Assembly: GCA_021795235.1 (NCBI GenBank) | Contig: JAJYPP010000014.1 | Span: 28,650 to 60,649, forward strand | Direction: 5' to 3' | DNA length: 32,000 nt | From: a bacterium | Lineage (GTDB): Bacteria; Chloroflexota; Dormibacteria; Aeolococcales; Bog-877 | In this document: in pieces, positions 13,103 to 29,781 of the stretch | How the letters are laid out: each line of letters starts with the position of its first letter | Position numbering within the stretch: position 1 is the first letter of the stretch | Translations under genes and position numbers: made by a program | Notes under the pieces: model-generated | Seen by the model: the letters and a program-made list of their open reading frames with translations, nothing else | What the model was told of the DNA's origin: nothing | The model's database searches: none

Positions 13103-14218
13103 TCAGATGGACGGCTCTCGCTCGGTGACACGGCAGCGGCCGGCACCGGCGACCTCGACCCTCTGCCGGCGCTTGCGAGCCACGATGGCAGCAAAGTCCT
13201 CGCCCTTCCGCTCGAGATAGCTGGGAACGCCGGGCACCGTCCTGGCCAGGGCCGCTCCGACCCCAGGGGCCGCCCCCAGCGCAGCCAGGCTGGAGGCATA
13301 GCCCACCAGTCCCCGGATTATCCGCAGCTCGTCGGCCGACCGGACCATGTCCCGCACCAGTGGCGTGGTGGGCGAGCCTATCTCGGCCTGGCAGATCGCG
13401 GCCCACTCCCGAGCCTCCGGCCAGCGGGCCCGGTTCGAGTCGGAGGTCGGGATCCGCAGCGAGAGCCACTGGGTGCCGTAGTGCCAGAGCTCCTGGCGGC
13501 TGGCGAGCGCCTCGGCCGGAGTTGAGCACCCCAGAGATACCAGCGAGCGGCGCCGGAACTGAAATTCGACCCGCCACACGGGCTGGTCTTGGTCCCAGTC
13601 CACCCACAGTGCCTTGGGCCACTCGGAGCCGCGGACGCTGAGCTCCATGGTCTTGTCGTAGCAGCGGGCCATCAGGTCGCCGCCGCCGAAGACGAAGCCG
13701 CTGGCCCTGCGTCCGCGCAGGTGGGCCTGGTCGTAGATCGGCACGGAGTACGTTCGCCGCCGGACGGCCCGGCAGTGGAACTTCTCGAAGTCCTCCATTA
13801 CCGGCAACCAGCCCTGGGTGTCGCAGTAAAGGTCGAGACGGGATACCCCAAGCACCGGCTCATCACGCATCACGTTGGCGGCCAGCCACTCGGAGATCTC
13901 AGCCGCGGCCTGGTCCGCTCCTCTGGAGTGCAGATAGGCAGAGTGAGCCTGGATGAACACCGGCGGGAACGGGGCTGGCGCCCCAATCGCCACCTCGATG
14001 TTGGGAGAGCTGGCCCAGAACGGATAGCTCCTCCAACCGTGGGGGCGCAGGGCAACCGAGAGTGACTGCTCGCCCCAGGTGACCACCTGGAGCTCCTTGG
14101 TACGCTGAGACTCCTCCTTGAGTGCCTCGAGGAAGACCAGCAGCCCGTCCTGAAGCTCGCCACGGACGGAGCAGTGGAGGGTGTCGACCCCAGCGCTCAG
14201 AATCTTGAGATCTTCCAT
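13103..14218 (-). CDS. rolling-circle replication initiator (Rep_trans / RepSA-like)
   Basis: Blocks VSRLDLYCDTQGW, ARCYDKTMEL and VWRVEFQFRR match the Rep_trans replication initiation factor pattern. I place the start at ATG 14218 (MEDLKILSAGVDTLHC), which overlaps the tra stop (TAATG), rather than at the track start 14314. Confidence 0.8.
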   Translation of the reverse strand: MEDLKILSAGVDTLHCSVRGELQDGLLVFLEALKEESQRTKELQVVTWGEQSLSVALRPHGWRSYPFWASSPNIEVAIGAPAPFPPVFIQAHSAYLHSRGADQAAAEISEWLAANVMRDEPVLGVSRLDLYCDTQGWLPVMEDFEKFHCRAVRRRTYSVPIYDQAHLRGRRASGFVFGGGDLMARCYDKTMELSVRGSEWPKALWVDWDQDQPVWRVEFQFRRRSLVSLGCSTPAEALASRQELWHYGTQWLSLRIPTSDSNRARWPEAREWAAICQAEIGSPTTPLVRDMVRSADELRIIRGLVGYASSLAALGAAPGVGAALARTVPGVPSYLERKGEDFAAIVARKRRQRVEVAGAGRCRVTEREPSI

Positions 14219-15585
14219 TACGATGGATCCAAGAGTTCGTCTGAAGGGGGGCACGTATTTTCCCACCACTGTGTGACAGGGCCAGTGGTGGGTGGGACGC
14301 CCCCGGCACCCCACCTCGCCAGCAGCAGCTCCCGGCTCTCCTCGACCGAGCAGTCGACCGCCTGGAACTCCTCTGTGGTCTCATGGGCGAAGACCGCCCG
14401 GCCCGGGTGCGGCGGCAGCAGAGAGGCTTTGTCGCTGTCGAGCAGGATGAAGCTGTTCACGGCGGCTCTGACCCGGAAGGCGACGGTGCCGTCGAGGTTG
14501 GCCTTCAGCTGCCCCGGCACGGCCTCGGCATCCGGTCTCTGAGTGCAGCAGACGAGGTGGATGTCCACCGATCTCCCGAGCCTGGCGATCTCACAGAGCC
14601 GCCCGGTGGCCGCCTGTTGGGCGGCACGGGCGGCCCGGTCGTCGCCAAGGTCGCGGACCGTCAGTTCGGCCACCTCGTCCACCACGACCAGGATCCGGGG
14701 CCAGGTGGCTGGGGCAGCTGAGTCCCCCGCCTCCACCGAGCGCCTGACCGCGGATAGCCGCCGGTCCAGCTCATCCCGGACGCGACTCAGAGTCTCCGCA
14801 GCTGCCGCCACGGTGTCGGCGACCGGGTAGAGGGCATGCGGCAACAGGCCGAAATAGGCGAGCTCAACGCCTCCCTTGAGGTCGATGAGCGCCAGCCGCA
14901 GCCGCTCCGGAGGGTGGTCGCAGCAGAGGAAGGTCAGGGCCTGGCGCAGGAAGACGCTCTTGCCCTGCCCGGTCATGCCTCCCACCAGCAGATGAGGGCA
15001 TGAGTCCAGGTCGACCCAGAGAGCGCCACGCCGTCCTCGCCCCAGGCCCACCAGGCAGCGCCCATGGGGACGGGGCCCGGAGTAGAAGGTGCGGTAGGGG
15101 ACCTGGTCCGGGATCTGGTGCCGGAGCACCTCCATCACCAGCGAGCCCGGCTCCTCCCAGCAGCGCAGCGCACAGTCGCACCTCGCCTCGAGCGAGCTTT
15201 GCCGGACCAGGACGTCGGCCAGGGTCACCCCCGGAGGCATCCGCCAGCGCAGGGTGACGTTGCGACCGACCCACTGGCTGCCGAGACTGGCCCGGGGCAG
15301 GACGATCCTGCCCCGGGCATCGCGGCCCACCAGCCCGGACTCCGCCATGGCCCGCCGCAGCCTGGCCGCGACCGACCAGTGCCGGCGGTGCATGGTCAGG
15401 GCGAGGACGAAGACCGTGACCACCCCGGTCGCGACCCCCGTGATCCCCTCCGGCCAGCCCAGGGCTCCGGTCACATATGGGGTTACCAGGAAAGCCCAGA
15501 CCGCGGGCTGGCGCACAACCGAGAGCAGGATCCGAACCGGATCCCACCACTCCTTGCGCTCGGTCGTGTACCGGGCCCCCATCAC
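14218..15585 (-). CDS. FtsK/SpoIIIE-family DNA translocase (TraSA/TraB-like conjugal transfer protein)
   Basis: 455 aa with N-terminal TM helices. Walker A is LLVGGMTGQGKSVFL and Walker B is ILVVVDEVAEL. This is the single-ATPase dsDNA transfer protein typical of AICEs. Confidence 0.9.
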   Translation of the reverse strand: MMGARYTTERKEWWDPVRILLSVVRQPAVWAFLVTPYVTGALGWPEGITGVATGVVTVFVLALTMHRRHWSVAARLRRAMAESGLVGRDARGRIVLPRASLGSQWVGRNVTLRWRMPPGVTLADVLVRQSSLEARCDCALRCWEEPGSLVMEVLRHQIPDQVPYRTFYSGPRPHGRCLVGLGRGRRGALWVDLDSCPHLLVGGMTGQGKSVFLRQALTFLCCDHPPERLRLALIDLKGGVELAYFGLLPHALYPVADTVAAAAETLSRVRDELDRRLSAVRRSVEAGDSAAPATWPRILVVVDEVAELTVRDLGDDRAARAAQQAATGRLCEIARLGRSVDIHLVCCTQRPDAEAVPGQLKANLDGTVAFRVRAAVNSFILLDSDKASLLPPHPGRAVFAHETTEEFQAVDCSVEESRELLLARWGAGGVPPTTGPVTQWWENTCPPSDELLDPS

Positions 15586-17545: not shown

Positions 17546-17595
17546 AGAACTCTCGTGCGGAGTTTGGACAGCAGTTCCCCTGCCGACCCAGTCAT
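17546..17595 (-). pseudogene. remnant of the first ~16 codons of a second TrkA_N-RyR gene copy
   Basis: ATG 17595 gives MTGSAGELLSKLRTRV, compared with MTRSAGELLSKLRTRV at 24263. Homology stops at 17546 and the frame terminates after 26 codons. Confidence 0.6.
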
Positions 17596-17657
17596 CCCTG
17601 TGCCCCCTTCTGCCAGTTGGCACCAGCGCAGTGTCTCGACCAGTGCGGCTGAGTTCG

Positions 17658-20600
17658 CTAGCCATTCCTCTTAGCCACCACCGTAGCCAGGGCGTCCTGC
17701 ACACCGCCAATGAGAGGATGGCCCGGGGGCAGCGCCTGACTGTATATCTCCAGCGCCTCACGGAACAGCCCCTCCGCCTCGTCGAGGCGCCCCTGTCGCG
17801 CGGCCGAAATGGCCAGGTTGCAGAGCGAGGCGGCATTGTCCGGATGGCCAGGGGGCAGCGACTGGCGGCGCATCGCCTGCGCCTCCCGTTGCAGCCCCTC
17901 CGCTTCCTCGTAGCGACCGTGGGCCCTGACCACAACGGCCAGGCTGCTGAGTGAGGTCGCGATGTCCGGATGTCCCGGGGGCAGCGCCTGGCGGCGTATC
18001 TCCAGCGCCTCACGAAGCAGCCCCTCCGCTTCCTCGTAGCGCCCCTGGGCCCTGACCACAATCGCCAGGTTGCTGAGCGAGGCGGCGATGTCCGGATGGG
18101 CCGCCGGCAGCGCATTGCGGACCATCACCAACGCCTCCCGGTACAGCCCCTCCGCTTCCTCGTAGCGCCCCTGGGCAAAGACCGCCTGTGCCAGGTTGTT
18201 GAGCGAGGCGGCGATGGCCGGATGGCTCGGAGGCAGCGCCTGACGGTATGTCTCCAGCGCCTCACGAAGCAGTCCCTCCGCTTCCTCGTAGCGACCCTGG
18301 ACCCTGACCACAATCGCCAGGCTGTTGAGCGAGTTCGCGATGTCCGGATGGCCCGGGGGCAGCGCCTGACGGAGTATCTCCAGCGCCTCCCGGTGCAGCC
18401 CCTCCGCTTCCTCGTAGCGCCCCTGGGCCCTGACCACAACGGCCAAGTTGTTGAGCGAGTTCGCGATGGCCGGATGGCCCTGAGGCAGCGCCAGGCGGCT
18501 TATCTCCAGCGACTCCCGGTGCAGCCCCTCCGCTTCCTCGTAGCGCCCCTGGGCAAAGACCGCCTGTGCCAGGTTGCTGAGCGAGGCGGCGATGTCTGGA
18601 TGGCCCGGGGGCAGCGCCTGGCGAAGTATCTCCAGCGCCTCCCGGTTCAGCCCCTCCGCTTCATCGTGGCGCCCCTGGGCCTGGACCACGCCGGCCAAGT
18701 TGTTGAGCGAGACGGCGATGGCCGGATGCGCCGCCGGCAGCGCCTGGCGGCTTATCTCCAGCGCCTCCCGGTGCAGCCCCTCCGCTTCCTCGTTGCGGCC
18801 CTGGGCAAAGACCGCCTTTGCCAGGTTGTTGAGTGAGTTCGCGATGGCCGGATGGCCCGCCGGCAGGGCCTCGCGGCGAATCTCCAGCGCCTCCCGGTTC
18901 AGCCCCTCCGCTTCCTGGTAGCGCCCCTGGGCCCGGACCACAGTGGCCAGGTTGCTGACCGAGGTGGCGATGTCTGGATGGCCCGGGGGCCGCGCCTTGC
19001 GGAATATCTCCAGCGCCTCCCGGTGCAGCCCCTCCGCTTCCTCGTAGCGCCCCTGGACAAAGACCACACCAGCCAGGTTGTCGAGCGAGGCGCCGTTGAC
19101 CGGATGGCCCGGGGGCAGCGCCTCGCGGCGTATCTCCAGCGCCTCCCGGTGCAGCCCCTTCGCTTCGTCGTAGCGCCCCTGGGCAGAGACCGCCTGTGCC
19201 AGGTTGTTGAGCGAGACGGCGATGGCCGGATGGCCCGGTGGCAGAGCCTGGCGGCCTATCTCCAGCGCCTCCCGGTGCAACCCCTCCGCTTCGCCGTAGC
19301 GCCCCTGGGCCTGGACCACATTGGCCAGGTCGTTGAGCGAGGTGGCGATGGCCGGATGGCCCGCAGGCAGATGGAAGCGGGCCCACACCAGGTTCGCCTC
19401 CGCCCAGGCGCCAGCGAGGGGAAGGAAGCTCATCTGACGCAACAAGCTGCTGACAGCGCTGACGCCTCCGAGCGATCCCCAGTCCACATCGGCTGCGCCC
19501 CACTGGCTCGCTAGCCGCTGGAGGTCCTCTGACACCTCTGCCCGGCCGGCGCCCAGCACCCCCAGCGCCAGCGTCAGGACCCCGGGGTCGCTCGTGGCCA
19601 GCGCCGCGACATGAGCTGGGGCGGCCAGATCAGCCAGAATCCCCTGATGGTCCTCAAGTCGGGCCCGCTGATAGACGCGCTCAGTCAGACTGCGGTCATC
19701 TTCCCCGTCGAAGTAGTCGATGAGGCGGCGTCGCGTGCGTGCTTCCTGGCCTGCCGGGAGGGCGCCGGCGCCAAGGGCAGCGTGCATCAGCGCCTGCATC
19801 CCTGCGTTGCGCAACAGGTACGGCGCCATCCATGTGAGAAGAGGCCGGAGCACGGGGTCCGCCACCCGGGGCCGGTGACTCGCGGGATCGATGGGGTCCG
19901 TCTCGTGGGCCATCAACTCGGCCAGCTCGCGATCCTCAAGCCCCCGGTAGCTGGCCGCCAGAAGGCCAGCCAGCTCTTGGGCCGGATGGCTGTGGTCGGC
20001 GTTGGGAAAGTCAGCGGCAAAGTCCTCGTCCAACTCTCGCAGCAGCGCTTCGAACAGGCGCGCCGGAGTCGGCCGCTGGAGCCGCTCGCGAAGCCTGAGC
20101 GGCAGGTCTTGATGGGTGGCGTGCACCCGCAGGTCCTCCAGCACCAGACGCAGGTACAGCGGGTTCGCGCATGCGGGATTGCCTGTCAGCTCCCCGACCA
20201 GCTCCTTCGGCAGGGCGTGGCGGTAGCTCTTGGTCACCTCCACGATGATCCGCTCCCTTTCCTTCGCCGTGGGTTGGCGGAGCTCCAGCGTCTCGAACAG
20301 CACCAAGCGGCTGCCTCGCTCGTCGGCCAGAGTCGCCACCAGTTGCACCCCCGGGGGCCAGACCAGCGCTCCCAGACGATCGAGGGCACCCGGGGGATCA
20401 ATGAGTTGATCCACCCCGTCGAGCATCAGCACAATCCCCGTGCTCAGCTTGGCCGTGGCCGCGGTGAGCTCGGACGCGAACCACTCCCACGGGTCTGTCG
20501 AGCCCGGGGGTTCTGTCTCCGTCCCCAGGTGCTCGAGCACCCGCACCCGCCAGCTCTCCAGACCGCGCTCCCCATCGGCGCCCACGAAGTGGGTGATGAC

Positions 20601-21488
20601 CGTGGCCCCGAGCTCGTCGCGTGCGCGGCCCGCAACGTGGGCGAGGAGGCTGCTCTTGCCGAGCCCAGAGGCCCCCGTGACCAGGATCGGACCCGGGGCC
20701 TCACCCGCCAGGTGAGCACGCAGCCGGCCAAGCAGCCCGTCCTCAAAGTCCACCAGCGGCAGGTAGCCCTCGAGGCGCACTGCCGCGAAGTGGTCGTGAG
20801 CAGCGTCCCGACGCTGGCGGAGATCCGGCACCTCACTTTGAGGGAACCGCAGATCGATCGCCTTCTCCAGCTCCACCCCCAGCCGATCGCCAAGCTCCGG
20901 CAACGACCGGTACCCGTCCAGGATCACCCGGCCGCTATCGCGCAGCTCCTGCTTCAAGGCTTGGAGCTTGACCGAGGGGCCATCGCGGAACTCGCCCTCA
21001 TCAGCGGCGCGGGCCTGCTGCAACTCCTCGGTCAGCGCCGGGTCGCGCAGGAAGAAGTAAGCGTGCTCGCGCATTTGGGGCGCCTCCAGCACCCCGAAGC
21101 GCATTTCCAGCTCGGTGACGCTCTCCCCCTGGTCAAGCGCCCTAGCGATACGCTCCCCGTAGGCCGAGTCGTGCCGCCTCTCCCAGTAGGCCGCGACGTC
21201 CTCTCGCCTCGGCACCCAGCCATACCGCTCCCCCAGGATGCCCACAAAGAAGGGCGGATGCTCCCGGCAGCGCTCAATCTCCTCCAAGCACACCTCGACG
21301 GTCCGCCCGTTCTTGGCGTCCTCTTCCTCGATCCCCCACCTCAGGTCGATCTCCACGAAGGCCACGCCGCGCTCTCGACAGTGCGCCCTCAGCGCCGGGA
21401 AGACATGGGTCAACAGCCAGCTGCGCTCGTCCTCCATGTCGCGAAACGTCGACGACACAAACACCCGCACCTCGCGCTCCGTACTCAT
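17658..21488 (-). CDS. STAND/NLR-like ATPase, copy 1: DUF4062-like N-domain, P-loop NTPase (NACHT/NB-ARC-like) and 13 x 42-aa TPR
   Basis: Same length (1276 aa) as copy 2, and residues 1-583 are identical to it. The start is placed at MSTEREVRVF (ATG 21488, ATGA overlap with the upstream ORF) rather than the track start 21647. Walker A is GASGLGKS and Walker B is IVLMLDGVD. The TPR units resemble GHPDIAxSLNNLAxVVxAQGRYEEAEGLxREALEIxRQALPP. Confidence 0.85.
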   Translation of the reverse strand: MSTEREVRVFVSSTFRDMEDERSWLLTHVFPALRAHCRERGVAFVEIDLRWGIEEEDAKNGRTVEVCLEEIERCREHPPFFVGILGERYGWVPRREDVAAYWERRHDSAYGERIARALDQGESVTELEMRFGVLEAPQMREHAYFFLRDPALTEELQQARAADEGEFRDGPSVKLQALKQELRDSGRVILDGYRSLPELGDRLGVELEKAIDLRFPQSEVPDLRQRRDAAHDHFAAVRLEGYLPLVDFEDGLLGRLRAHLAGEAPGPILVTGASGLGKSSLLAHVAGRARDELGATVITHFVGADGERGLESWRVRVLEHLGTETEPPGSTDPWEWFASELTAATAKLSTGIVLMLDGVDQLIDPPGALDRLGALVWPPGVQLVATLADERGSRLVLFETLELRQPTAKERERIIVEVTKSYRHALPKELVGELTGNPACANPLYLRLVLEDLRVHATHQDLPLRLRERLQRPTPARLFEALLRELDEDFAADFPNADHSHPAQELAGLLAASYRGLEDRELAELMAHETDPIDPASHRPRVADPVLRPLLTWMAPYLLRNAGMQALMHAALGAGALPAGQEARTRRRLIDYFDGEDDRSLTERVYQRARLEDHQGILADLAAPAHVAALATSDPGVLTLALGVLGAGRAEVSEDLQRLASQWGAADVDWGSLGGVSAVSSLLRQMSFLPLAGAWAEANLVWARFHLPAGHPAIATSLNDLANVVQAQGRYGEAEGLHREALEIGRQALPPGHPAIAVSLNNLAQAVSAQGRYDEAKGLHREALEIRREALPPGHPVNGASLDNLAGVVFVQGRYEEAEGLHREALEIFRKARPPGHPDIATSVSNLATVVRAQGRYQEAEGLNREALEIRREALPAGHPAIANSLNNLAKAVFAQGRNEEAEGLHREALEISRQALPAAHPAIAVSLNNLAGVVQAQGRHDEAEGLNREALEILRQALPPGHPDIAASLSNLAQAVFAQGRYEEAEGLHRESLEISRLALPQGHPAIANSLNNLAVVVRAQGRYEEAEGLHREALEILRQALPPGHPDIANSLNSLAIVVRVQGRYEEAEGLLREALETYRQALPPSHPAIAASLNNLAQAVFAQGRYEEAEGLYREALVMVRNALPAAHPDIAASLSNLAIVVRAQGRYEEAEGLLREALEIRRQALPPGHPDIATSLSSLAVVVRAHGRYEEAEGLQREAQAMRRQSLPPGHPDNAASLCNLAISAARQGRLDEAEGLFREALEIYSQALPPGHPLIGGVQDALATVVAKRNG
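17661..19364. repeat. 126-bp tandem coding repeat array (13 TPR units plus a C-terminal cap) of NLR copy 1
   Basis: A 42-codon periodicity is visible in the protein. All frames on both strands stay open across the array. Confidence 0.9.
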
Positions 21489-21859
21489 GGTTCCTCCACC
21501 ACCCGATAGGTCTTGCTGAAGACGCCGCTTCCGACGACCCCGACATCGCCGGGGGCGTACTGAACCAGCCAGTCCCCCGCCTGTCCGACTAGCACCCCAC
21601 CGGACGGCAATTCGACGCTGATCGGCGCCTGCTCCGCCGAGATGCACACAGCCCAGATCGTTTCAGCGCGCGCGACGTACCGCCCGTCATCTCCCCAGTT
21701 CGTGCCGACAACCGGCCGATATCGCGCCGCGAAGACTGCCCGCTCGACCGGCCAGTGCTCCCCTTCCACCCCGGTCAGGATCGCGTCCCCCGCAACGTAG
21801 GGGAACCAGCCCCTCCCGGGTGGCCACGGTCCCTGCTGCCCTGGCGAAGGTGGCCTCCA
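21485..21859 (-). pseudogene. PGDYG-like small gene, copy 1: 5'-truncated and frameshifted
   Basis: Matches 28153-28526. It has a 4-G run (21800-21803) where copy 2 has 3 G (28468-28470). This splits ...EATFARAAGTVATREGLVP and YVAGDAILTGVEGEHWPVER... into different frames. Homology, and hence the N-terminus and promoter, ends at 21859. Confidence 0.65.
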
Positions 21860-22457: not shown

Positions 22458-24263
22458 TCACCTCAAGATCTGGCCGGGAGCATCGGGCACATGACAGACG
22501 TACCCAGCCCTACTCAACTGGTGCGGCCACGCCCTCACAATGTCCCGATTCTTTTCCTTTCCAAGCTCACTCAGAGCGCTCCATTCCACCAAGTCCGGAT
22601 GAAGACGTGCGGCTTCATCGCGGACCTCTCCAAAGCGCCACCCTTGGCGCTTCTTCTGCACAGTCCACCGCTCATGTTCCACCCGCGCCAGTTGCTCAAC
22701 GAACTCCGGCCACATGTCAGCGCCAATACTACTGTCCCCTGGTCGCACCCGAGCCACGCGATAACCAGCGCCCGCAAGCGAGCTGAATATCGAGTAGGCT
22801 TGCTCGCGGTTCGTCTCCTTCAGCCCTAGGTCCAACTCCTCCCACGGTTTGTGACTGGGCTTCTCGGGATCCAGCCTCCCCAACCTCCGTGCCTCATCAT
22901 CCAGAAAGTCCCCGTGAACCTGAATAGCAAGGCGCTCGAACAACGTTCCGCCCATCACATGTGCATACTCACATGCTCGTGCCTCAGCATCGACAAGAAC
23001 TACGCCGAACGTCTGGAGGGCCTGCCCCTGATCGGCGCTCCCGGATGTGCACACCACCTTGAGCCCCTTGAATTCGCGTTGCTCCGCAAGTGCCAGCGCC
23101 ATCGAAAGACCGGCGTCTCCCGTCATGTCGCACGCGACAATGCCGTCCGGCGCATCGGCATCCGAGCCAACCGCCCACTTGACGCGCGCATCGACTTCGG
23201 TGTCCGGGACGTCCGCCGCGCATGGCATGACCGTCACCAGCTCCGGATCGAGGTCGCGCTTCACCTTCTCAGCGAAGTCCGCGGCACCCATGCCGCCTAC
23301 GCGCAGGTCCAGGTGGGATGGTCCGCCAACGCTTGAGGTGGTCGTCGCCATCCATCGTCCCAGATCGCGCACGACTTGAGTCGCAAGCGGACCGGTTCCA
23401 ATGAGAGCGACTTTATATCTTGTAATCTTTGCGAGCCCCTCCGTGACTGTTTGCACTACCTGTTGTGCAGCAACTTCACCTGGTGAAAAGGCGTCCACGT
23501 GCACGGCGGCCGAGTCCTTCTGTCGACTCCGTGCATACACGGCCCGCAGGCGGTCGCAAGCCTCAGGGTCGGGCATCCTCGCGATGACGACCCGCGGAGT
23601 CCGACGTACGCCCCCGGTCTGGGGAACGGCTGCATGAAGCGCCGAAACGATAGCCAAGTTGGTCGCGGCAGTGCCAGTCAGGCAGAACAGCTTCGCGGCC
23701 TGCCCGATCCCCGCCTGCTTCAGCACCAATGGATCTCGGGCGTCCGACAAGATGACCGGAATGCCAAGTGTGCGAGCTGCCGTCACTCCCGCTGCGAAAG
23801 GATTCATCTCGACAGCCACAACAGCGGTATGGGGCGGCGCGGTCTGAACAAGCCGGATACCAACACTCCCCAGCCCACAGACCACAATGTGCCCCCGGTA
23901 CGTCGCGATGCGGGCGCGGTCATACGTTCGTCGGAAGGCAATAGTGAGCAGTCCAATTACGGTTGTGCCCGTGACGACCACCGCCACCAGTCGGGCCAAC
24001 TGAAGTTCCCACGACAATGCTCCAGGCGGCTTCTGGTAGTCGAAGACAAACAGGGATACCGCGTCATACACAGCCGAGGGGACACTCACTCCTTGTGCCC
24101 AGTACCCAAATGAACCCAGGGTGAAAGCAGACCCGGCCGATAAAAGGAGTGCGAACGGCCACCACGGCTGTGCGGCAGTTGACGCGCGGCGTCTGAGGTA
24201 CCTCACGTGGGGCAGAACTCTCGTGCGGAGTTTGGACAGCAGTTCACCCGCCGACCTAGTCAT
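22458..24263 (-). CDS. 2TM membrane protein with a TrkA_N/RCK NAD-binding domain, a second Rossmann-like domain and C-terminal RyR repeats
   Basis: 601 aa. TM1 is WWPFALLLSAGSAFTLGSFGYW. A pore-helix-like segment SAVYDAVSLFVFDY has no TVGYG filter. TM2 is LARLVAVVVTGTTVIGLLTIAF. Glycine loop is HIVVCGLGSVGIRLV, with a second one at KVALIGTGPLATQVV. RyR-type repeats are ...KPWEELDLGLKETNREQAYSIFSSLAGAGY and EHERWTVQKKRQGWRFGEVRDEAARLHPDLVEWSALSELGKEKNRDIV. Confidence 0.8.
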   Translation of the reverse strand: MTRSAGELLSKLRTRVLPHVRYLRRRASTAAQPWWPFALLLSAGSAFTLGSFGYWAQGVSVPSAVYDAVSLFVFDYQKPPGALSWELQLARLVAVVVTGTTVIGLLTIAFRRTYDRARIATYRGHIVVCGLGSVGIRLVQTAPPHTAVVAVEMNPFAAGVTAARTLGIPVILSDARDPLVLKQAGIGQAAKLFCLTGTAATNLAIVSALHAAVPQTGGVRRTPRVVIARMPDPEACDRLRAVYARSRQKDSAAVHVDAFSPGEVAAQQVVQTVTEGLAKITRYKVALIGTGPLATQVVRDLGRWMATTTSSVGGPSHLDLRVGGMGAADFAEKVKRDLDPELVTVMPCAADVPDTEVDARVKWAVGSDADAPDGIVACDMTGDAGLSMALALAEQREFKGLKVVCTSGSADQGQALQTFGVVLVDAEARACEYAHVMGGTLFERLAIQVHGDFLDDEARRLGRLDPEKPSHKPWEELDLGLKETNREQAYSIFSSLAGAGYRVARVRPGDSSIGADMWPEFVEQLARVEHERWTVQKKRQGWRFGEVRDEAARLHPDLVEWSALSELGKEKNRDIVRAWPHQLSRAGYVCHVPDAPGQILR

Positions 24264-24325
24264 CCCTGTGCCCCCCTCTGCCAGGTGGCACCAGCACAGT
24301 GTCTCGACCAGTGTGTCCCAGTTCG

Positions 24326-27300
24326 CTAGCCATTCCTCTTAGCCACCACCATAGCCAGGTAGTCCTGCGCGCTGGCGATGAGAGGATGGCCCGGGGGCAG
24401 CGCCTGACGGTATATCGCCAACGCTTCCCGGTACAGCCCCTCCGCTTCGTCGTAGCGCCCCTGATCCGAGACCACACTGGCCAGGTTGCTGACCGACATC
24501 GCGATGAGAGGATGGCCCGGGGGCAGCGCCTGGCGGCGCATGTCCAGCGCCTCCCGGTATAGCCCCTCCGCTTCGTCGTATCGCCCCTGAGCCGAGACCA
24601 CAATCGCCAGGTTGCTGACCGACGTGGCAATGTCCGGATGGCCCGGGGGCAGCGCCTGGCGGCTTATCTCCAGCGCCTCCCGAAGCAGCCCCTCCGCTTC
24701 GTCGTAGCGCCCTTGGGCAAGCACCGAATCTGCCAGGTTGTTGAGCGAGGCGGCGATGGCCCGATGGCCCGGGGGCAGCGCCTCGCGGCGCATCTCCAGC
24801 GCCTCCCGGTGTAGCCCCTCCGCCTCGTCGTTGCGCCCCTGGGCAAAGACCGCCTCTGCCAGGTTGTTGAGCGAGTTCGCGATGTCCGGATGGCCCGGGG
24901 GCAGCGCCTGGCGGCGCATGTCCAGCGCCTCCCGGTACAGCCCCTCCACTTCGCCGTAGCGCCCCTGGGCCTGGACCACATTGGCCAGGTTGCTGACCGA
25001 GGTGGCGATGTCCGGATGGCCCGGGGGCAGCGCCTGGCGGCGCATCTCCAGCGCATCCATGAGCAGCCCCTCCGCTTCCTCGTAGCGACCCTGGGCAAAG
25101 ACCGCCTGTGCCAGGTTGTTGAGCGAGACGGCAATGTCCGGATGGCCCGCCGGCAGCGCCTGGCGGCGTACAGCCAGCGCCTCCCGTTGCAGCCCCTCCG
25201 CTTCCTCGTAGCGACCCTGATCCGAGAACACACCGCCCAGGTTGCTGAGCGAGACGGCAATGTCCGGATGGCCCGCCGGCAGAGCCTGGCGATATATCTC
25301 CAGCGCCTCCTTGTACAGCCCCTCCGCTTCGTCGTAGCGCCCCTGATGCGAGAACACACCGCCCAGGTTGCTGACCGACTTCGCAATGTCCGGATGGCCC
25401 GGGGGCAGCGCCTTGCGGAATATCTCCAGCGCCTCCCGTTGCAGCCCCTCCGCTTCCTCGTAGCGACCCTGGGCAAAGACCGCCTGTGCCAGGTTGTTGA
25501 GCGAGTTCGCGATGTCCGGATGTCCCGGGGGCAGCGCCTGACGGCGCATCTCCAGCGCATCCATGAGCAGCCCCTCCGCTTCGCCGTAGCGCCCCTGGGC
25601 GAAGACCACAGTGGCCAGGTTGCTGACCGAGGCGGCAATGTCCGGATGGCCCAGGTGCAGAGCCTGGCGATATATCTCCAGCGCCTCCCGGCGCAGCCCC
25701 TCCGCTTCGCCGTAGCGACCCTGATCCGAGACCACACCGGCCAGGTTGCTGACCGAGGCGGCGATGGCCGGATGGCCCGCCGGCAGCGCCTGGCGGAGCA
25801 TCTCCAGCGCCTCCTTGTACAGCCTCTCCGCCTCCTCGTAGCGACCCTGGGCCCTGACCACATTGGCCAGGTTGCTGAGCGAGGTGGCGATGTCCGGATG
25901 GCCCGCCGGCAGCGCCTGGCGGCGTACAGCCAGCGCCTCCCGTTGCAGCCCCTCCGCTTCCTCGTAGCGACCCTGGGCAAAGACCGCCTGTGCCAGGTTG
26001 TTGAGCGAGTTCGCGATGTCCGGATGTCCCGGGGGCAGGTGGAAGCGGGCCCATGCCAGGTTCGCCTCCGCCCAGGCACCGGCGAGGGGAAGGAAGCTCA
26101 TCCCATACAACAAGCTGCTGACAGCGCTGACGCCGCCGAGCGATCCCCAGTCCACATCGGCTTCGCCCCAGTGGCTTGCAAGCTGCTGGAGGTCCTCTGA
26201 CACCTCTGCCCGGCCGGCGCCCAGCACCCCCAGCGCCTGCGTCAGGACCCCGGGGTCGCTCGTGGCCAGCGCGGCGACATGAGCTGGGGCGGCCAGATCA
26301 GCCACAATCCCCTGGTGGTCCTCAAGTCGGGCCCGCTGATAGAGGCGCTCAGTCAGGCCACGGTCATCTTCCCCGTCGAAGTAGTCGATGAGGTGGCGTC
26401 GCGTGGGTGCTTCCTGGCCTGCCGGGAGGGCGCCGGCGCCAAGGGCAGCGTGCATCAGCGCCTGCATCCCTGCGTTGCGCAACAGGTACGGCGCCATCCA
26501 TGTGAGAAGAGGCCGGAGCACGGGGTCCGCCACCCGGGGCCGGTGACTCGCGGGATCGATGGGGTCCGTCTCGTGGGCCATCAACTCGGCCAGCTCGCGA
26601 TCCTCAAGCCCCCGGTAGCTGGCCGCCAGAAGGCCAGCCAGCTCTTGGGCCGGATGGCTGTGGTCGGCGTTGGGAAAGTCAGCGGCAAAGTCCTCGTCCA
26701 ACTCTCGCAGCAGCGCTTCGAACAGGCGCGCCGGAGTCGGCCGCTGGAGCCGCTCGCGAAGCCTGAGCGGCAGGTCTTGATGGGTGGCGTGCACCCGCAG
26801 GTCCTCCAGCACCAGACGCAGGTACAGCGGGTTCGCGCATGCGGGATTGCCTGTCAGCTCCCCGACCAGCTCCTTCGGCAGGGCGTGGCGGTAGCTCTTG
26901 GTCACCTCCACGATGATCCGCTCCCTTTCCTTCGCCGTGGGTTGGCGGAGCTCCAGCGTCTCGAACAGCACCAAGCGGCTGCCTCGCTCGTCGGCCAGAG
27001 TCGCCACCAGTTGCACCCCCGGGGGCCAGACCAGCGCTCCCAGACGATCGAGGGCACCCGGGGGATCAATGAGTTGATCCACCCCGTCGAGCATCAGCAC
27101 AATCCCCGTGCTCAGCTTGGCCGTGGCCGCGGTGAGCTCGGACGCGAACCACTCCCACGGGTCTGTCGAGCCCGGGGGTTCTGTCTCCGTCCCCAGGTGC
27201 TCGAGCACCCGCACCCGCCAGCTCTCCAGACCGCGCTCCCCATCGGCGCCCACGAAGTGGGTGATGACCGTGGCCCCGAGCTCGTCGCGTGCGCGGCCCG

Positions 27301-28156
27301 CAACGTGGGCGAGGAGGCTGCTCTTGCCGAGCCCAGAGGCCCCCGTGACCAGGATCGGACCCGGGGCCTCACCCGCCAGGTGAGCACGCAGCCGGCCAAG
27401 CAGCCCGTCCTCAAAGTCCACCAGCGGCAGGTAGCCCTCGAGGCGCACTGCCGCGAAGTGGTCGTGAGCAGCGTCCCGACGCTGGCGGAGATCCGGCACC
27501 TCACTTTGAGGGAACCGCAGATCGATCGCCTTCTCCAGCTCCACCCCCAGCCGATCGCCAAGCTCCGGCAACGACCGGTACCCGTCCAGGATCACCCGGC
27601 CGCTATCGCGCAGCTCCTGCTTCAAGGCTTGGAGCTTGACCGAGGGGCCATCGCGGAACTCGCCCTCATCAGCGGCGCGGGCCTGCTGCAACTCCTCGGT
27701 CAGCGCCGGGTCGCGCAGGAAGAAGTAAGCGTGCTCGCGCATTTGGGGCGCCTCCAGCACCCCGAAGCGCATTTCCAGCTCGGTGACGCTCTCCCCCTGG
27801 TCAAGCGCCCTAGCGATACGCTCCCCGTAGGCCGAGTCGTGCCGCCTCTCCCAGTAGGCCGCGACGTCCTCTCGCCTCGGCACCCAGCCATACCGCTCCC
27901 CCAGGATGCCCACAAAGAAGGGCGGATGCTCCCGGCAGCGCTCAATCTCCTCCAAGCACACCTCGACGGTCCGCCCGTTCTTGGCGTCCTCTTCCTCGAT
28001 CCCCCACCTCAGGTCGATCTCCACGAAGGCCACGCCGCGCTCTCGACAGTGCGCCCTCAGCGCCGGGAAGACATGGGTCAACAGCCAGCTGCGCTCGTCC
28101 TCCATGTCGCGAAACGTCGACGACACAAACACCCGCACCTCGCGCTCCGTACTCAT
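24326..28156 (-). CDS. STAND/NLR-like ATPase, copy 2: DUF4062-like N-domain, P-loop NTPase (NACHT/NB-ARC-like) and 13 x 42-aa TPR
   Basis: 1276 aa. N-terminus reads VRVFVSSTFRDMEDERSWLLTHVFPALR...FFVGILGERYGWVP (DUF4062-like). Walker A GASGLGKS is encoded at 27320-27343. Walker B is IVLMLDGVD. A helical linker follows, then the TPR array from about aa 709. The ATG overlaps the stop of the upstream small gene. Confidence 0.9.
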   Translation of the reverse strand: MSTEREVRVFVSSTFRDMEDERSWLLTHVFPALRAHCRERGVAFVEIDLRWGIEEEDAKNGRTVEVCLEEIERCREHPPFFVGILGERYGWVPRREDVAAYWERRHDSAYGERIARALDQGESVTELEMRFGVLEAPQMREHAYFFLRDPALTEELQQARAADEGEFRDGPSVKLQALKQELRDSGRVILDGYRSLPELGDRLGVELEKAIDLRFPQSEVPDLRQRRDAAHDHFAAVRLEGYLPLVDFEDGLLGRLRAHLAGEAPGPILVTGASGLGKSSLLAHVAGRARDELGATVITHFVGADGERGLESWRVRVLEHLGTETEPPGSTDPWEWFASELTAATAKLSTGIVLMLDGVDQLIDPPGALDRLGALVWPPGVQLVATLADERGSRLVLFETLELRQPTAKERERIIVEVTKSYRHALPKELVGELTGNPACANPLYLRLVLEDLRVHATHQDLPLRLRERLQRPTPARLFEALLRELDEDFAADFPNADHSHPAQELAGLLAASYRGLEDRELAELMAHETDPIDPASHRPRVADPVLRPLLTWMAPYLLRNAGMQALMHAALGAGALPAGQEAPTRRHLIDYFDGEDDRGLTERLYQRARLEDHQGIVADLAAPAHVAALATSDPGVLTQALGVLGAGRAEVSEDLQQLASHWGEADVDWGSLGGVSAVSSLLYGMSFLPLAGAWAEANLAWARFHLPPGHPDIANSLNNLAQAVFAQGRYEEAEGLQREALAVRRQALPAGHPDIATSLSNLANVVRAQGRYEEAERLYKEALEMLRQALPAGHPAIAASVSNLAGVVSDQGRYGEAEGLRREALEIYRQALHLGHPDIAASVSNLATVVFAQGRYGEAEGLLMDALEMRRQALPPGHPDIANSLNNLAQAVFAQGRYEEAEGLQREALEIFRKALPPGHPDIAKSVSNLGGVFSHQGRYDEAEGLYKEALEIYRQALPAGHPDIAVSLSNLGGVFSDQGRYEEAEGLQREALAVRRQALPAGHPDIAVSLNNLAQAVFAQGRYEEAEGLLMDALEMRRQALPPGHPDIATSVSNLANVVQAQGRYGEVEGLYREALDMRRQALPPGHPDIANSLNNLAEAVFAQGRNDEAEGLHREALEMRREALPPGHRAIAASLNNLADSVLAQGRYDEAEGLLREALEISRQALPPGHPDIATSVSNLAIVVSAQGRYDEAEGLYREALDMRRQALPPGHPLIAMSVSNLASVVSDQGRYDEAEGLYREALAIYRQALPPGHPLIASAQDYLAMVVAKRNG
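24329..26032. repeat. 126-bp tandem coding repeat array (13 TPR units plus a cap) of NLR copy 2
   Basis: 42-aa periodicity. Internal duplicated blocks are present: EAEGLLMDALEMRRQALPPGHPDIA occurs twice and EAEGLQREALAVRRQALPAGHPDIA occurs twice. Confidence 0.9.
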
Positions 28157-28602
28157 GGTTCCTCCACCACCCGATAGGTCTTGCTGAAGACGCCGCTTCC
28201 GACGACCCCGACATCGCCGGGGGCGTACTGAACCAGCCAGTCCCCCGCCTGTCCGACTAGCACCCCACCGGACGGCAATTCGACGCTGATCGGCGCCTGC
28301 TCCGCCGAGATGCGCACAGCCCAGATCGTTTCAGCGCGCGCGACGTACCGGCCGTCATCTCCCCAGTTCGTGCCGACAACCGGCTGATATCGCGCCCCAA
28401 AGGCTGCCCGCTCGACGGGCCAGTGCTCCCCCTCCACCCCGGTCAGGATCGCGTCCCCCGCGACGTAGGGAACCAGCCCCTCCCGGGTGGCCACGGTCCC
28501 TGCTGCCCTGGCGAAGGTGGCCTCCACCGGCAGACCCCGCTTGCGCACACGCACGGCCCCCGGCTGCTGCGCTAGGTCCGACCCGGGATCAAAGCTGTTC
28601 AC
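28153..28602 (-). CDS. small PGDYG-like protein (intact copy), first gene of the NLR cassette
   Basis: ...RKRGLPVEATFARAAGTVATREGLVPYVAGDAILTGVEGEHWPVERAAFGARYQPV...LVGQAGDWLVQYAPGDVGVVGSGVFSKTYRVV matches my recollection of the PGDYG family (Pfam PF14083) of bacteria and phages. The GTG 28602 start is uncertain and internal GTGs are possible. The stop overlaps the NLR ATG. Confidence 0.6.
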   Translation of the reverse strand: MNSFDPGSDLAQQPGAVRVRKRGLPVEATFARAAGTVATREGLVPYVAGDAILTGVEGEHWPVERAAFGARYQPVVGTNWGDDGRYVARAETIWAVRISAEQAPISVELPSGGVLVGQAGDWLVQYAPGDVGVVGSGVFSKTYRVVEEP

Positions 28603-28623: not shown

Positions 28624-29292
28624 CCCCCTGCCGGAGTTGGACCCACTTCAGCAGGCCCATGTGTGTCCCTGATCTGGCCTCTCCCGTCCAACCCTGCACT
28701 CGCGCCGATGGCTGGCAAACTCATGACGACGAATCGCGGAGCGGAGCCGTCCGCAGCGCCCAGGGACACATCCAGTAGCCCCGGCGACAGATGATAGGCG
28801 GTCAGGACGGCGTGCGCCCCCAGGCCACTGCCAGCTGTGACGCCGCAGAAGATCTCCGATTGACACAACCAAGGCCCTGGATCTCATTGGCGGCGACTGC
28901 CCACCACAAGGCTGGACCGCCTTGTCACCGGACTTCTGGAGCCGCACTTGGACCGTGTATCTCTTGCCAGAGACAACGGCCGTCAGATAAGGGGGCGGAA
29001 GGTGGGCCAGGCTGGTGCTGGTTGCCAACCCCTTGAAGTAGCAACTGTCGAAGGCGGGCGCCGGAGCGGACGCGGGGAAGGTGACCAGCATCGTGCTCGA
29101 CCGCCACGATGGTCGTCCTCGCACTTGGGACGTCGAGATGCCGGACCCACCAAATGCGGCGGCATCGACTTCGTGGCAGCCCCTCGCGAGGCCATGGGCC
29201 GATCCTCATCTGCAGAAGGCGGGTGTGCATTGTCATCATGGACTTACACTCTCTGCCTTCCTCAGGGTCTCGATCGGTTGGGGAGATTGACA

Positions 29293-29781
29293 TTGACCAC
29301 GGCTCACACCACAGCCCAGCGCCTGGCCAGTTCAGTCGACACGCCACCAGAGAAGCTGGCGAAGCTCGCCGAGAGTCGGGATGCTGAGGTCAGGCGACGG
29401 GTGGCGCACCGGCCAACCTGCCCGCCCCAGACGGTCGGCCTTCTGGTGGGAGACGTCGACCCTTGGGTACGCTGTGCAGCAGGCGGCAATCCCTCGATCT
29501 CAGCCGACCTACTCGCGCGCCTGGCCGATGATGTCGACGATCGCGTCCGCGGAGCCGTGGCCGGGAACCCTGTCGTGCCCGACACGCTGCTGCGCCGGAT
29601 GGCGACTGATTCGTCCGCCTGGGTGCGAGCAAACGTGGTGATGAATCCCGCTTGCCCGACGGAACTCCGAGAGGCGCTGGCCGACAGCCCTGACTCCGAA
29701 CTCGTTCGACTGGCTGCCTCAGGGACGATGCAGAGTATGGAGCGCTCCCAACGGCGATCCAGGAGCGACCTCGTCGGCTAG
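29293..29781 (+). CDS. HEAT/leucine-rich-repeat-variant (LRV)-like repeat protein
   Basis: Repeats of about 24 aa: LAKLAESRDAEVRRRVAHRPTCP / LLVGDVDPWVRCAAGGNPSIS / LARLADDVDDRVRGAVAGNPVVP / LRRMATDSSAWVRANVVMNPACP / LADSPDSELVRLAAS. The start is uncertain: TTG 29293 or 29287 after GGGAGA. The track start 28948 is not credible. Confidence 0.45.
   Translation: MTTAHTTAQRLASSVDTPPEKLAKLAESRDAEVRRRVAHRPTCPPQTVGLLVGDVDPWVRCAAGGNPSISADLLARLADDVDDRVRGAVAGNPVVPDTLLRRMATDSSAWVRANVVMNPACPTELREALADSPDSELVRLAASGTMQSMERSQRRSRSDLVG

What the first reader, a model, noticed from the sequence alone, without database searches (positions are those of the whole stretch)
24329..26032. TPR arrays behave as recombining 126-bp cassettes with a few hypervariable positions per unit
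Aligning the 13 units of each protein by eye (GHPxIAxSLxNLAxxVxAQGRYxEAEGLxREALEIxRQALPP) shows a nearly invariant scaffold. Variability is concentrated at about five positions: unit positions 4, 7, 14-17, 29 and 35-37.

Copy 2 contains repeated multi-unit junction blocks. EAEGLLMDALEMRRQALPPGHPDIA occurs twice and EAEGLQREALAVRRQALPAGHPDIA occurs twice. This indicates unequal crossing-over or gene conversion between units.

The unit number (13) is conserved between the paralogues. Such highly similar internal repeats with hypervariable sites are reported for fungal NLR repeat domains and suggest a programmable binding surface.
Basis: seen in the sequence. Interest (0 to 1): 0.6.

Follow-up and report, generated by a model that had tools for sequence, protein, structure and literature searches.

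The report
Shuffling TPR sensor arrays, bacterial NLR twins
Two neighbouring bacterial immune-receptor-like genes each end in 13 similar 42-residue helical repeats that have exchanged short DNA patches and vary mainly at residues predicted to line the binding groove; this pattern is already known from fungal and some bacterial receptors, so it is a clear new example and not a new kind of thing.

Summary
Each of two minus-strand paralogues (24326-28156 and 17658-21488) has a DUF4062/NIR domain, a STAND P-loop NTPase, and 13 x 126-bp kinesin-light-chain-type TPR units plus a half-unit cap.

The units are about 82% identical within arrays, between arrays and in register, so positional orthology is gone. 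In-register dS is 0.26. It is 0.13 in the flanking linker and 0 over the 1,907-bp identical N-terminal block.

Recombination between units is supported by a PHI test (p<=0.0002), by exact tracts of 100 and 86 nt, and by unit B01 being a perfect B05|B07 mosaic. Breakpoints lie inside units, and recent exchange is within arrays.

Variation peaks at positions 14, 29, 36, 7 and 17. At the positions that contact cargo in KLC1, dN/dS is 2.3, against 0.45 elsewhere. The same positions vary in independent homologues.

No donor cassettes and no DGR signature were found.

The pattern is described for fungal NLRs and noted for bacterial ones. This scan has reported it in at least 18 other genomes.

The parts
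24392..26029 (-). TPR array of copy B: 13 units of 126 bp / 42 aa (B01 = 25904-26029 ... B13 = 24392-24517)
   Evidence: Pfam TPR_10 502.7 bits and TPR_12 393.2 bits; AF2 model with pLDDT 94
24329..24391 (-). C-terminal half-unit cap of copy B (GHPLIASAQDYLAMVVAKRNG); the stop codon is 24326-24328
17724..19361 (-). TPR array of copy A: 13 units of 126 bp (A01 = 19236-19361 ... A13 = 17724-17849)
17661..17723 (-). C-terminal half-unit cap of copy A; the stop codon is 17658-17660
24326..28156 (-). Gene B (1276 aa): DUF4062/NIR domain (aa 8-95 plus the S123-x-T-E126-x-E128 motif), P-loop NTPase (G275-x-G-K278-S; D357), helical linker, TPR array
17658..21488 (-). Gene A (1276 aa from ATG 21488; the open frame runs on to GTG 21647): same architecture as gene B
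26407..28313 (-). 1,907-bp block 100% identical to 19739-21645. It covers 157 nt upstream plus codons 1-583 and serves as the internal control showing dS = 0.
26030..26406 (-). Linker, codons 584-709 (copy A: 19362-19738). It is 92.9% identical between the copies (dS 0.133) and gives the background divergence of the paralogues.
25930..26029 (-). Exact 100-nt tract shared by B01 and B05 (= 25426-25525)
25890..25975 (-). Exact 86-nt tract running from B01 into B02, identical to the B07-into-B08 tract (= 25134-25219). Together with the 100-nt tract it makes B01 a B05|B07 mosaic.
28156..28602 (-). PGDYG-family small gene whose stop overlaps the start of gene B. It is a likely partner gene.
   Evidence: a PGDYG gene also lies beside homologue P0014 in L003
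22458..24263 (-). TrkA_N + RyR-domain protein encoded between the two copies

Best explanation
The two arrays are the ligand-sensor arms of two tandem NLR-like (STAND) proteins. Each protein has an N-terminal DUF4062/NIR domain, which is a TIR-like NADase in characterised relatives.

Each array folds into a kinesin-light-chain-type superhelical TPR solenoid. Helix A is unit positions 3-18 and helix B is positions 22-39. The conserved Asn11 ladder and the hydrophobic scaffold are kept. Positions 7, 10, 14, 17 and 18, which lie on one face of helix A, and position 36 are hypervariable. These are the positions that contact cargo peptides in KLC1.

At the DNA level the 26 units form a pool of related but distinct sequences. 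Short in-register gene-conversion patches of about 45-100 nt move between units, mostly within one array, and re-assort the variable modules. Amino-acid changes at the groove positions are favoured by selection. As a result, the two paralogues carry an identical effector and switch module but quite different sensor surfaces.

Shown here: the anatomy, the mosaic structure, the loss of positional orthology, the dN/dS contrast and the fold. Inferred: that the groove binds a protein of an invader such as a phage, that binding drives NTP-dependent oligomerisation and NAD+ depletion, and that the two copies recognise different ligands.
For: Architecture: DUF4062 scores 52.5 bits against a cut-off of 24.7. 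There are weak AAA_16/NACHT hits with an intact Walker A and B. TPR_10 and TPR_12 score very strongly.

Effector function in relatives: DUF4062 is an NADase effector in Avs-type and other defence systems (bioRxiv 10.64898/2026.09.04.749371 and 10.64898/2026.05.01.722283).

Fold: the AF2 model has pLDDT 94 and pTM 0.88. The closest solved sequences are KLC1/2 and the Podospora 42-residue TPR 4Y6C. The best target-normalised Foldseek TM-score is 0.78, to KLC1-JIP1 (6fuz).

No positional orthology: unit identity is 0.822 within A, 0.821 within B, 0.817 between arrays and 0.822 in register. dS is 0 in the N-terminal block, 0.133 in the linker, 0.257 in the arrays in register and 0.135 in the cap.

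Recombination: PHI p<=0.0002. Exact tracts of 100 and 86 nt compare with a shuffled maximum of 71. B01 matches B05 at 17 of 17 informative sites and B07 at 8 of 8, with no private changes (p=9e-7). B08 is a B04-like unit carrying a B05-like patch. The six longest tracts are all within one array (permutation p=0.006).

Selection: dN/dS is 2.29 at the KLC1-contact positions against 0.45 elsewhere, and dS is equal in the two classes. In-register identity is 28/91 at the groove positions against 324/364 at scaffold positions.

Replication: the entropy profiles of arrays A and B correlate (rho 0.62). They also correlate with 7 of 8 independent internally conserved homologues. In L003 and L004, dN at the same positions is 6-7 times that of the remaining positions.
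Against: The genome is a MAG: 174 contigs, 92% complete, 7% contaminated.

The groove assignment therefore rests on alignment to KLC1 and on helical periodicity. Helix-B variable sites show no single-face pattern (p=0.72), and position 29, the second most variable, is unplaced.

Mean exact identity between units is only about 20-23 nt. That is near the lower limit for RecA-type recombination (my own knowledge), so current exchange may be rare.

The pooled Nei-Gojobori dN/dS ignores phylogeny and recombination.

In the two independent homologues, dN/dS at the groove set is only 0.74-0.98. That could reflect relaxed constraint and need not mean positive selection.

PADLOC has no Avs or other defence model matching the NTPase. 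No function has been tested.
Confidence: 0.72

Rival explanations
1. Assembly artefact. The repeat arrays, or the tandem R-U-R arrangement, were mis-joined by a metagenome assembler. On this view the mosaics and the scrambled order are chimeras of strains or of repeat copies.
For: The source is a MAG with 174 contigs and 7% contamination. A 1,907-bp exact repeat sits within one contig, which is hard for short-read assemblers to resolve. No independent contig carries either protein. Reads could not be consulted.
Against: All 26 units are distinct. Only seven pairs share exact tracts of 50 nt or more, so few places could confuse a k>=55 graph.

A shared exact tract with four different flanks exists in the k-mer content whichever path is correct, so the mosaic signal survives path errors.

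Mis-joining cannot create the position-specific dN/dS contrast. It also cannot create the equal about 82% identity of all unit pairs.

Both genes are intact in-frame ORFs with exactly 13 units.
Confidence: 0.1
2. No recombination and no positive selection. An ancestral array of nearly identical units was duplicated, and all units then diverged independently by point mutation in a star-like fashion. Variation accumulated where the fold tolerates it, at exposed positions, and shared variants are convergent.
For: A star-like unit tree with no strongly supported branch, together with equal within, between and in-register identities, is what this model predicts. dN/dS at the groove positions in the independent homologues is at or below 1.
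Against: Site incompatibility rises with distance (0.39 at 10 nt or less, 0.64 beyond 25 nt) and PHI gives p<=0.0002.

Perfect two-parent mosaics with no private differences, and exact tracts of 100 and 86 nt, are not expected in units that otherwise differ by 18%.

In-register dS is twice that of the adjacent linker and cap, which independent point mutation does not explain.

dN/dS is 2.3 at positions that were chosen from external data.
Confidence: 0.1
3. The genes are not immune receptors. On this view they are STAND-type regulators or scaffolds, like MalT/AfsR or kinesin-light-chain adaptors, whose TPR solenoid binds endogenous partners. Variation between units would simply reflect different contacts along one long partner.
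For: No PADLOC defence model matches the NTPase. TPR solenoids are general protein-binding scaffolds. No trigger is known.
Against: The N-terminal DUF4062 domain keeps the family's conserved motifs, and in tested relatives it is a defence NADase.

The genes are absent from 40 related genomes.

They lie downstream of a tRNA-Arg gene and near integrase and FtsK-type transfer genes, consistent with mobile-element cargo. The far boundary of that element was not verified here.

Duplication with an identical effector and diversified sensors is typical of receptor families.
Confidence: 0.06
4. Programmed diversification by a dedicated machine. The candidates are a diversity-generating retroelement, or silent donor cassettes of the pilS/vlsE type that feed the expressed arrays.
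For: Reverse-transcriptase genes exist on the same contig, at C71:118-2168.
Against: The RT genes lie more than 44 kb from the arrays.

A search with the unit consensus finds all 26 units in the two genes and no template repeat or silent cassette anywhere else in the genome.

Departures from the consensus occur at all four bases (A 0.18, C 0.13, G 0.08, T 0.14 per site), so they are not adenine-specific.
Confidence: 0.02

Closest known systems
Fungal NLRs with highly internally conserved (HIC) TPR, ANK or WD repeats, e.g. [quoted passage not shown] 2014, PMC4986451; Ament-Velasquez & Saupe 2026, PMC13449251)
   Same: Both have the tripartite effector / NOD / repeat architecture and 42-residue KLC-type TPR units. 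Both have a nearly invariant scaffold with a few hypervariable positions that map to the binding face. Exchange of repeat segments occurs within genes, and paralogues differ mainly in the repeats.
   Different: This is a bacterial host, and the genes lie near integrase and transfer genes. The effector is DUF4062/NIR and the NTPase is only weakly NACHT/AAA_16-like. Internal identity is lower: 72% pairwise in amino acids and Psim 0.80, below the 85% used by Dyrka et al. Unit number is equal in the two copies, and repeat-number polymorphism could not be tested. Recent exchange between the two genes' arrays is not seen.
Bacterial NLR-like proteins with internally conserved TPR or WD repeats (noted in Dyrka et al. 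[quoted passage not shown]
   Same: It is the same class of observation. [quoted passage not shown]
   Different: Those reports are surveys. Here the tandem paralogues supply an internal clock (dS 0 / 0.13 / 0.26) that shows the scrambling directly. The lineage is probably Candidatus Dormibacterota (TrpS best hit 69%), not Actinobacteria or Cyanobacteria.
Kinesin light chain TPR domain (KLC1/KLC2; PDB 6FUZ, 3ZFW, 3NF1) and the Podospora 42-residue TPR 4Y6C/4Y6W
   Same: They share the 42-residue unit, the LNNLA asparagine ladder and the superhelical fold. The phmmer E-value is 6e-47 and sequence identity is 35-39%. The cargo-contact positions (7, 10, 11, 14, 15, 17, 18, 22, 36) coincide with the variable positions here.
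   Different: KLC has six divergent repeats fixed for cargo motifs. Here there are 13.5 much more uniform repeats fused to a STAND NTPase.
DUF4062/NIR-STAND-TPR defence proteins such as PsAvs2 of Pseudomonas chlororaphis (bioRxiv 10.64898/2026.09.04.749371)
   Same: They share the domain order: an N-terminal DUF4062 NADase-type effector, a STAND NTPase and C-terminal TPR sensor repeats.
   Different: PADLOC Avs models do not match this protein. The closest database homologues are only 43-45% identical over the N-terminal 700 aa. Most family members do not have internally conserved repeats; only about 8 of 120 do.

Membership tests
HIC-repeat NLRs (fungal-type definition) | Tripartite NLR architecture: N-terminal effector, central NOD/STAND NTPase, C-terminal superstructure-forming repeats | tested here: met
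   DUF4062 scores 52.5 bits (cut-off 24.7). AAA_16 (26 bits) and NACHT (18 bits) fall below their cut-offs, but Walker A GxGK278S and Walker B D357 are conserved. TPR_10 scores 503 bits.
HIC-repeat NLRs (fungal-type definition) | Internal repeat identity of 85% or more over 100 aa or more (Dyrka et al. 2014) | tested here: not met
   Mean pairwise amino-acid identity of units is 0.716. The best 210-aa window at offset 42 is 0.74-0.75.
HIC-repeat NLRs (fungal-type definition) | Psim of 0.70 or more (Ament-Velasquez & Saupe 2026, T-REKS criterion) | tested here: met
   Psim is 0.81 for array A and 0.80 for array B. It was computed by hand from the unit alignment, not with T-REKS.
HIC-repeat NLRs (fungal-type definition) | A few hypervariable positions under diversifying selection on the binding face | tested here: inconclusive
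   dN/dS is 2.29 at the KLC1-contact positions against 0.45 elsewhere. The overlap with contact positions has p=0.003 and helix-A variation is on one face (p=0.012). However, no recombination-aware site test was run and no coordinates were available. Position 29 is unplaced.
HIC-repeat NLRs (fungal-type definition) | Repeat shuffling or exchange within and between family members | tested here: met
   Exchange within arrays is shown by PHI p<=0.0002, the mosaics in B01 and B08, and exact tracts of 100 and 86 nt. Between arrays, units are interleaved on the tree, but the longest exact tract is only 42 nt.
HIC-repeat NLRs (fungal-type definition) | Repeat-number polymorphism between individuals or strains | not testable with these tools
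   There is no close relative in 40 related genomes or among 5.8 billion proteins. The two paralogues both have 13 units.
KLC-type 42-residue TPR (Pfam TPR_10/TPR_12) | Match to the family profiles above cut-off, and a helix-turn-helix solenoid fold | tested here: met
   There are 13 TPR_10 matches per protein. The AF2 model has 27 helices in the array plus an N-terminal capping helix (28 in all) and pLDDT 94. KLC1/2 are the top sequence hits and give the best target-normalised TM-score, 0.78.
DUF4062 / NIR TIR-like NADase effectors | Pfam DUF4062 match and conservation of the family's acidic S-x-T-E motif with the candidate catalytic glutamate | tested here: met
   PF13271 scores 52.5 bits. 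F10, E87-R-Y-G-W and S123-V-T-E126-L-E128 are 91-99% conserved among 76 homologues. Which glutamate is catalytic, and whether there is NADase activity, was not tested.
Avs (antiviral STAND) families in PADLOC | Match of the NTPase/sensor to an Avs profile | tested here: not met
   PADLOC-DB v2.0 returns only a generic TPR model and two matches with E-values of 0.002-0.004.
Diversity-generating retroelement targets | A nearby RT, a template repeat, and adenine-specific variation | tested here: not met
   The RT genes are more than 44 kb away. There is no extra copy of the unit in the genome. Variation occurs at all four bases.

The most novel reading that the evidence does not exclude
The 26 units may be kept at an intermediate identity of about 82% as a standing library. 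Short patch conversion would then re-assort two sub-modules: the helix-A groove module (codons 13-18) and a helix-B module (codons 29-36). The helix-B module is also hypervariable in independent lineages and would mark a second ligand-contact ridge not described for TPR sensors. Meanwhile, inter-paralogue conversion keeps the effector and switch module identical. On a mobile element, this partitioned concerted evolution could change receptor specificity fast enough to matter within populations.
Probability: 0.1. Interest if true: 0.55.

Novelty: new member of a known kind. Interest (0 to 1): 0.3.

Why it matters
For bacterial NLR-like receptors the literature so far only notes that internally conserved repeats exist. 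This pair carries its own control. The same two genes show dS of 0 in the effector/NTPase module, 0.13 in the linker and 0.26 in the arrays. Scrambling of the sensor repeats can therefore be read directly from one locus.

The pair also links this mode of evolution to the newly characterised DUF4062/NIR NADase effector class. And it gives two natural receptors with identical signalling parts and different sensors, which is a convenient pair for array-swap experiments on specificity.

It does not reveal a new mechanism.

Tried and rejected
- **Coordinates.** The AF2 model's coordinates are not exposed in the Python box. Burial and concavity could not be computed, so I used alignment to KLC1 contact residues and helical periodicity instead.
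- **Relatives.** No match was found in 40 related genomes. The nearest homologues are 43-45% identical. No orthologous arrays exist to compare.
- **Donor cassettes.** A genome-wide search with the unit consensus found only the 26 units.
- **DGR.** Rejected.
- **Avs membership.** PADLOC gave no hit.
- **Higher-order periodicity and neighbour effects.** Identity does not depend on the lag between units: 0.818 for adjacent units against 0.822 for non-adjacent.
- **Partner-gene check.** The 636-aa neighbour of homologue P0014 was tested as a relative of the TrkA_N-RyR gene here and showed no similarity.
- **Unit tree.** It carries little resolution, with 0 of 23 branches well supported. This is expected under recombination, so I did not base any donor or order inference on it.
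Full report
**What is there.** The window has two large minus-strand ORFs, 24326-28156 (copy B, 1276 aa) and 17658-21647 (copy A; by homology it starts at ATG 21488 and is also 1276 aa). Pfam gives the same architecture for both:
- DUF4062 at aa 8-95 (52.5 bits against a cut-off of 24.7);
- a P-loop NTPase with weak AAA_16, AAA_22 and NACHT matches;
- very strong TPR_10 and TPR_12 matches, 13 per protein.

Tandem Repeats Finder reports 126-bp arrays of 13.1-13.2 copies at 17716-19370 and 24373-26038. Cutting the proteins in the register G1-H2-P3 gives 13 units of 42 aa plus a 21-aa half-unit cap in each copy. All 26 units are distinct at both the DNA and the protein level.

**The paralogues provide an internal clock.** The duplication covers 17546-21859 and 24214-28526.
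- A 1,907-bp block is 100% identical between the copies (B 26407-28313 = A 19739-21645). It covers 157 nt upstream plus codons 1-583, with 0 differences at about 449 synonymous sites.
- Divergence starts at codon 584. The linker (codons 584-709) has dS 0.133, the C-terminal cap has dS 0.135, and the 3' flank is 91% identical.
- The TPR arrays compared in register have dS 0.257 and dN 0.185.

The arrays are thus twice as diverged at silent sites as their immediate flanks. Their in-register dS equals the dS between any two units (0.248).

Mean unit identity is 0.822 within A, 0.821 within B, 0.817 between arrays and 0.822 for same-numbered units. Positional orthology has been erased. The maximum-likelihood unit tree is star-like: 0 of 23 inner branches are well supported. 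A and B units are interleaved, and the only A-B sister pair (A05/B10) is not positional.

**Evidence for exchange between units.**
- The longest in-register exact tracts are 100 nt (B01 = B05) and 86 nt (B01:55 to B02:14 = B07:55 to B08:14). Further tracts of 65, 65, 55, 52 and 50 nt follow.
- Shuffling codon columns among the units gave a mean longest tract of 47 nt and a maximum of 71 in 300 trials.
- A PHI-type test on 55 informative sites is significant: observed 0.51-0.66 against 0.76 expected, p<=0.0002. The fraction of incompatible site pairs rises from 0.39 at 10 nt or less to 0.64 beyond 25 nt.
- B01 matches B05 at all 17 informative sites up to nt 54 and matches B07 at all 8 sites from nt 101, with no private change. 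Fisher p is 9e-7 at the best breakpoint. This passes Bonferroni correction for the 15,542 triplets but is not corrected for the choice of breakpoint.
- B08 is a B04-like unit carrying a B05/B01-like patch at about nt 25-69.

Breakpoints therefore lie inside units. The exchanged pieces are patches of roughly 45-100 nt and not whole 126-bp cassettes.

The six longest tracts are all within one array, and the longest A-B tract is 42 nt (permutation p=0.006). Recent exchange is therefore intra-array. Identity does not depend on the distance between units. Both arrays have 13 units, so unequal crossing-over is not demonstrated. In-register gene conversion is the simpler reading.

**Where the variation sits.** Entropy is highest at positions 14 (3.0 bits), 29, 36, 7 and 17 (all above 2.2). 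Next come 23, 35, 10, 18, 38, 4, 42, 15 and 34. The remaining 28 positions are nearly invariant. Codon choice in the scaffold is fixed even where it is unusual for a 68% G+C genome: His2 is CAT in 26 of 26 units.

The AF2 model of the copy-B domain is confident (pLDDT 94, pTM 0.88). It places helix A at unit positions 3-18 and helix B at positions 22-39. The nearest solved sequences are the kinesin light chains (E=6e-47), and the Podospora 42-residue TPR 4Y6C is also hit. The best target-normalised structural match is KLC1 bound to the JIP1 peptide (6fuz, TM 0.78).

I used the phmmer alignment and the contact list in PMC6214655. All 13 named residue types match after a +20 numbering offset. 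The KLC1 cargo contacts then fall on unit positions 7, 10, 11, 14, 15, 17, 18, 22 and 36. Seven of these nine are among the 14 variable positions (hypergeometric p=0.003; Mann-Whitney p=0.0002). The other two, Asn11 and Tyr22, are conserved, as they are in KLC. Variation on helix A lies on one helical face (entropy moment 0.45 against 0.21 expected, p=0.012). Variation on helix B shows no single face (p=0.72).

The concave-face claim is thus supported by homology and not measured. Position 29 remains unplaced.

**Selection.** Pooled Nei-Gojobori estimates give dN/dS of 0.23 for the 28 scaffold codons and 2.25 for the 14 variable codons, but that grouping is circular. With positions fixed in advance from the KLC1 contacts, dN/dS is 2.29 (dS 0.240) against 0.45 (dS 0.249) for the rest. 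With positions fixed from the unrelated homologue P0014, it is 1.89 against 0.58. In register, the two arrays agree at 28 of 91 groove-type residues and at 324 of 364 scaffold residues. The twins therefore present different surfaces on the same frame.

**Replication in other lineages.** Among 120 DUF4062-NTPase-TPR homologues, the closest are only 43-45% identical over the N-terminal 700 aa. About eight of them have internally conserved 42-aa repeats, with offset-42 identity of 0.69-0.89. Their variable positions are again 4, 7, 8, 14, 17, 18, 29, 34 and 36. Their entropy profiles correlate with those here in 7 of 8 cases. At the DNA level, in L003 (15 units, 88% identical) and L004 (11 units, 76.5% identical), dN at positions 7, 10, 14, 17, 18 and 36 is 0.385 and 0.70. 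At all other positions it is 0.053 and 0.12. Their dN/dS at the groove set is 0.98 and 0.74, so relaxed constraint cannot be excluded there.

**Alternatives tested.**
- *Silent donor cassettes:* a genome-wide search with the unit consensus finds only the 26 units.
- *Diversity-generating retroelement:* reverse transcriptases exist on the contig but lie more than 44 kb away. There is no template repeat. Departures from the consensus occur at all four bases.
- *Assembly artefact:* this cannot be excluded. However, only seven unit pairs share 50 nt or more. A shared exact tract flanked by four different sequences is a property of the k-mer content whichever path is right. Mis-joining also cannot create the codon-position pattern.
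- *Star-like divergence without recombination:* this fits the equal identities. It does not fit the PHI result, the mosaics or the doubled in-register dS.

**Function (inferred).** DUF4062 has recently been shown to be a TIR-like NADase effector (NIR). The evidence comes from an Avs2-type STAND-TPR protein, from other defence systems and from human TEP1. Both copies here keep the family's conserved motifs F10, E87-R-Y-G-W and S123-x-T-E126-x-E128, and also keep Walker A and B.

The genes are absent from 40 related genomes. They lie downstream of tRNA-Arg(CCT), with a tyrosine integrase and an FtsK-type transfer gene nearby. This suggests cargo of an integrative element, although I did not verify the element's far boundary. 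A PGDYG-family gene overlaps the start of copy B, and a PGDYG gene also neighbours homologue P0014.

The most likely working model is the standard NLR one. A foreign protein binds in the TPR groove, the NTPase oligomerises, and the NADase is switched on. The two copies would cover different ligands. PADLOC has no matching Avs model, and nothing here tests activity.

**Comparison with what is known.** This is the regime described for fungal NLRs: internally conserved WD, ANK or TPR repeats, repeat exchange, and positive selection at positions that map to the concave face when modelled on KLC2 (Dyrka et al. 2014, PMC4986451). Its existence in bacterial NLRs has been noted (bioRxiv 10.1101/2020.01.06.895854) and surveyed across all domains of life (PMC13449251). 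By the Psim >= 0.70 criterion the arrays qualify (0.80-0.81). By the 85% criterion they do not, at 72% pairwise.

Earlier follow-ups in this scan reported the same phenomenon in at least 18 other genomes, mostly cyanobacteria. One earlier report on this window described the identical 1.9-kb block, which I re-measured independently.

What this case adds:
- the three-level internal clock;
- the DUF4062/NIR effector;
- a probable Candidatus Dormibacterota host (TrpS best hit 69%, which is weak evidence).

**Verdict.** It is a new member of a known kind, of modest interest.

Noticed in passing
window 28156-28602 (-); L003 7273-7722 (+): A PGDYG-family small gene (Pfam 66 bits) overlaps the start codon of NLR copy B by 4 nt. 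A PGDYG gene (73 bits) also lies two genes downstream of the unrelated internally conserved homologue P0014. This may be a recurring partner of DUF4062-STAND-TPR proteins.
   Followed up: partly
window 22458-24263 (-): A 601-aa protein with TrkA_N (51.8 bits) and a C-terminal RyR domain (57 bits) is encoded between the two NLR copies. It shows no similarity to the 636-aa neighbour of P0014, and PADLOC gives no hit.
   Followed up: partly
G000 contig C71:118-750 and 1539-2168 (outside the window, about 27 kb upstream of its start): Two adjacent reverse-transcriptase ORFs (RVT_1, 134-135 bits) sit at the contig end. They are too far from the TPR arrays to be linked to them, and their type (group II intron, retron or defence RT) was not determined.
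   Followed up: no
window 11655-11730, 11839-12945, 14218-15585: A tRNA-Arg(CCT) gene is followed by a tyrosine integrase and an FtsK/SpoIIIE-type gene. This is consistent with the NLR pair being cargo of an integrative, AICE-like element.
   Followed up: partly
window 24392-26029 and 17724-19361, unit codons 2, 14 and 35: Codon use inside the repeats is odd for a 68% G+C genome. His2 is CAT in 26 of 26 units. Ile35 is ATA in 14 of its 15 Ile codons (15 of the 26 units have Ile at position 35). Hypervariable codon 14 mostly ends in T while its first two bases vary. This suggests descent from one founder unit, perhaps of foreign origin.
   Followed up: no
unit position 29 (and 36) in the window arrays, L003 and L004: Position 29 on helix B is the second most variable site here. 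It is also variable in independent homologues, yet it is not among the KLC1 groove contacts. Its structural location is unexplained.
   Followed up: partly
L004 10085-12916 and 15664-15813: The internally conserved homologue P0114 sits beside two further NLR-like genes that carry TIR_2 effectors. This looks like a cluster of STAND receptors in a JGI metagenome contig.
   Followed up: no
window 28948-29781 (+): An LRV/HEAT-repeat protein (LRV 55.9 bits) is encoded just beyond the head of the NLR cassette.
   Followed up: no
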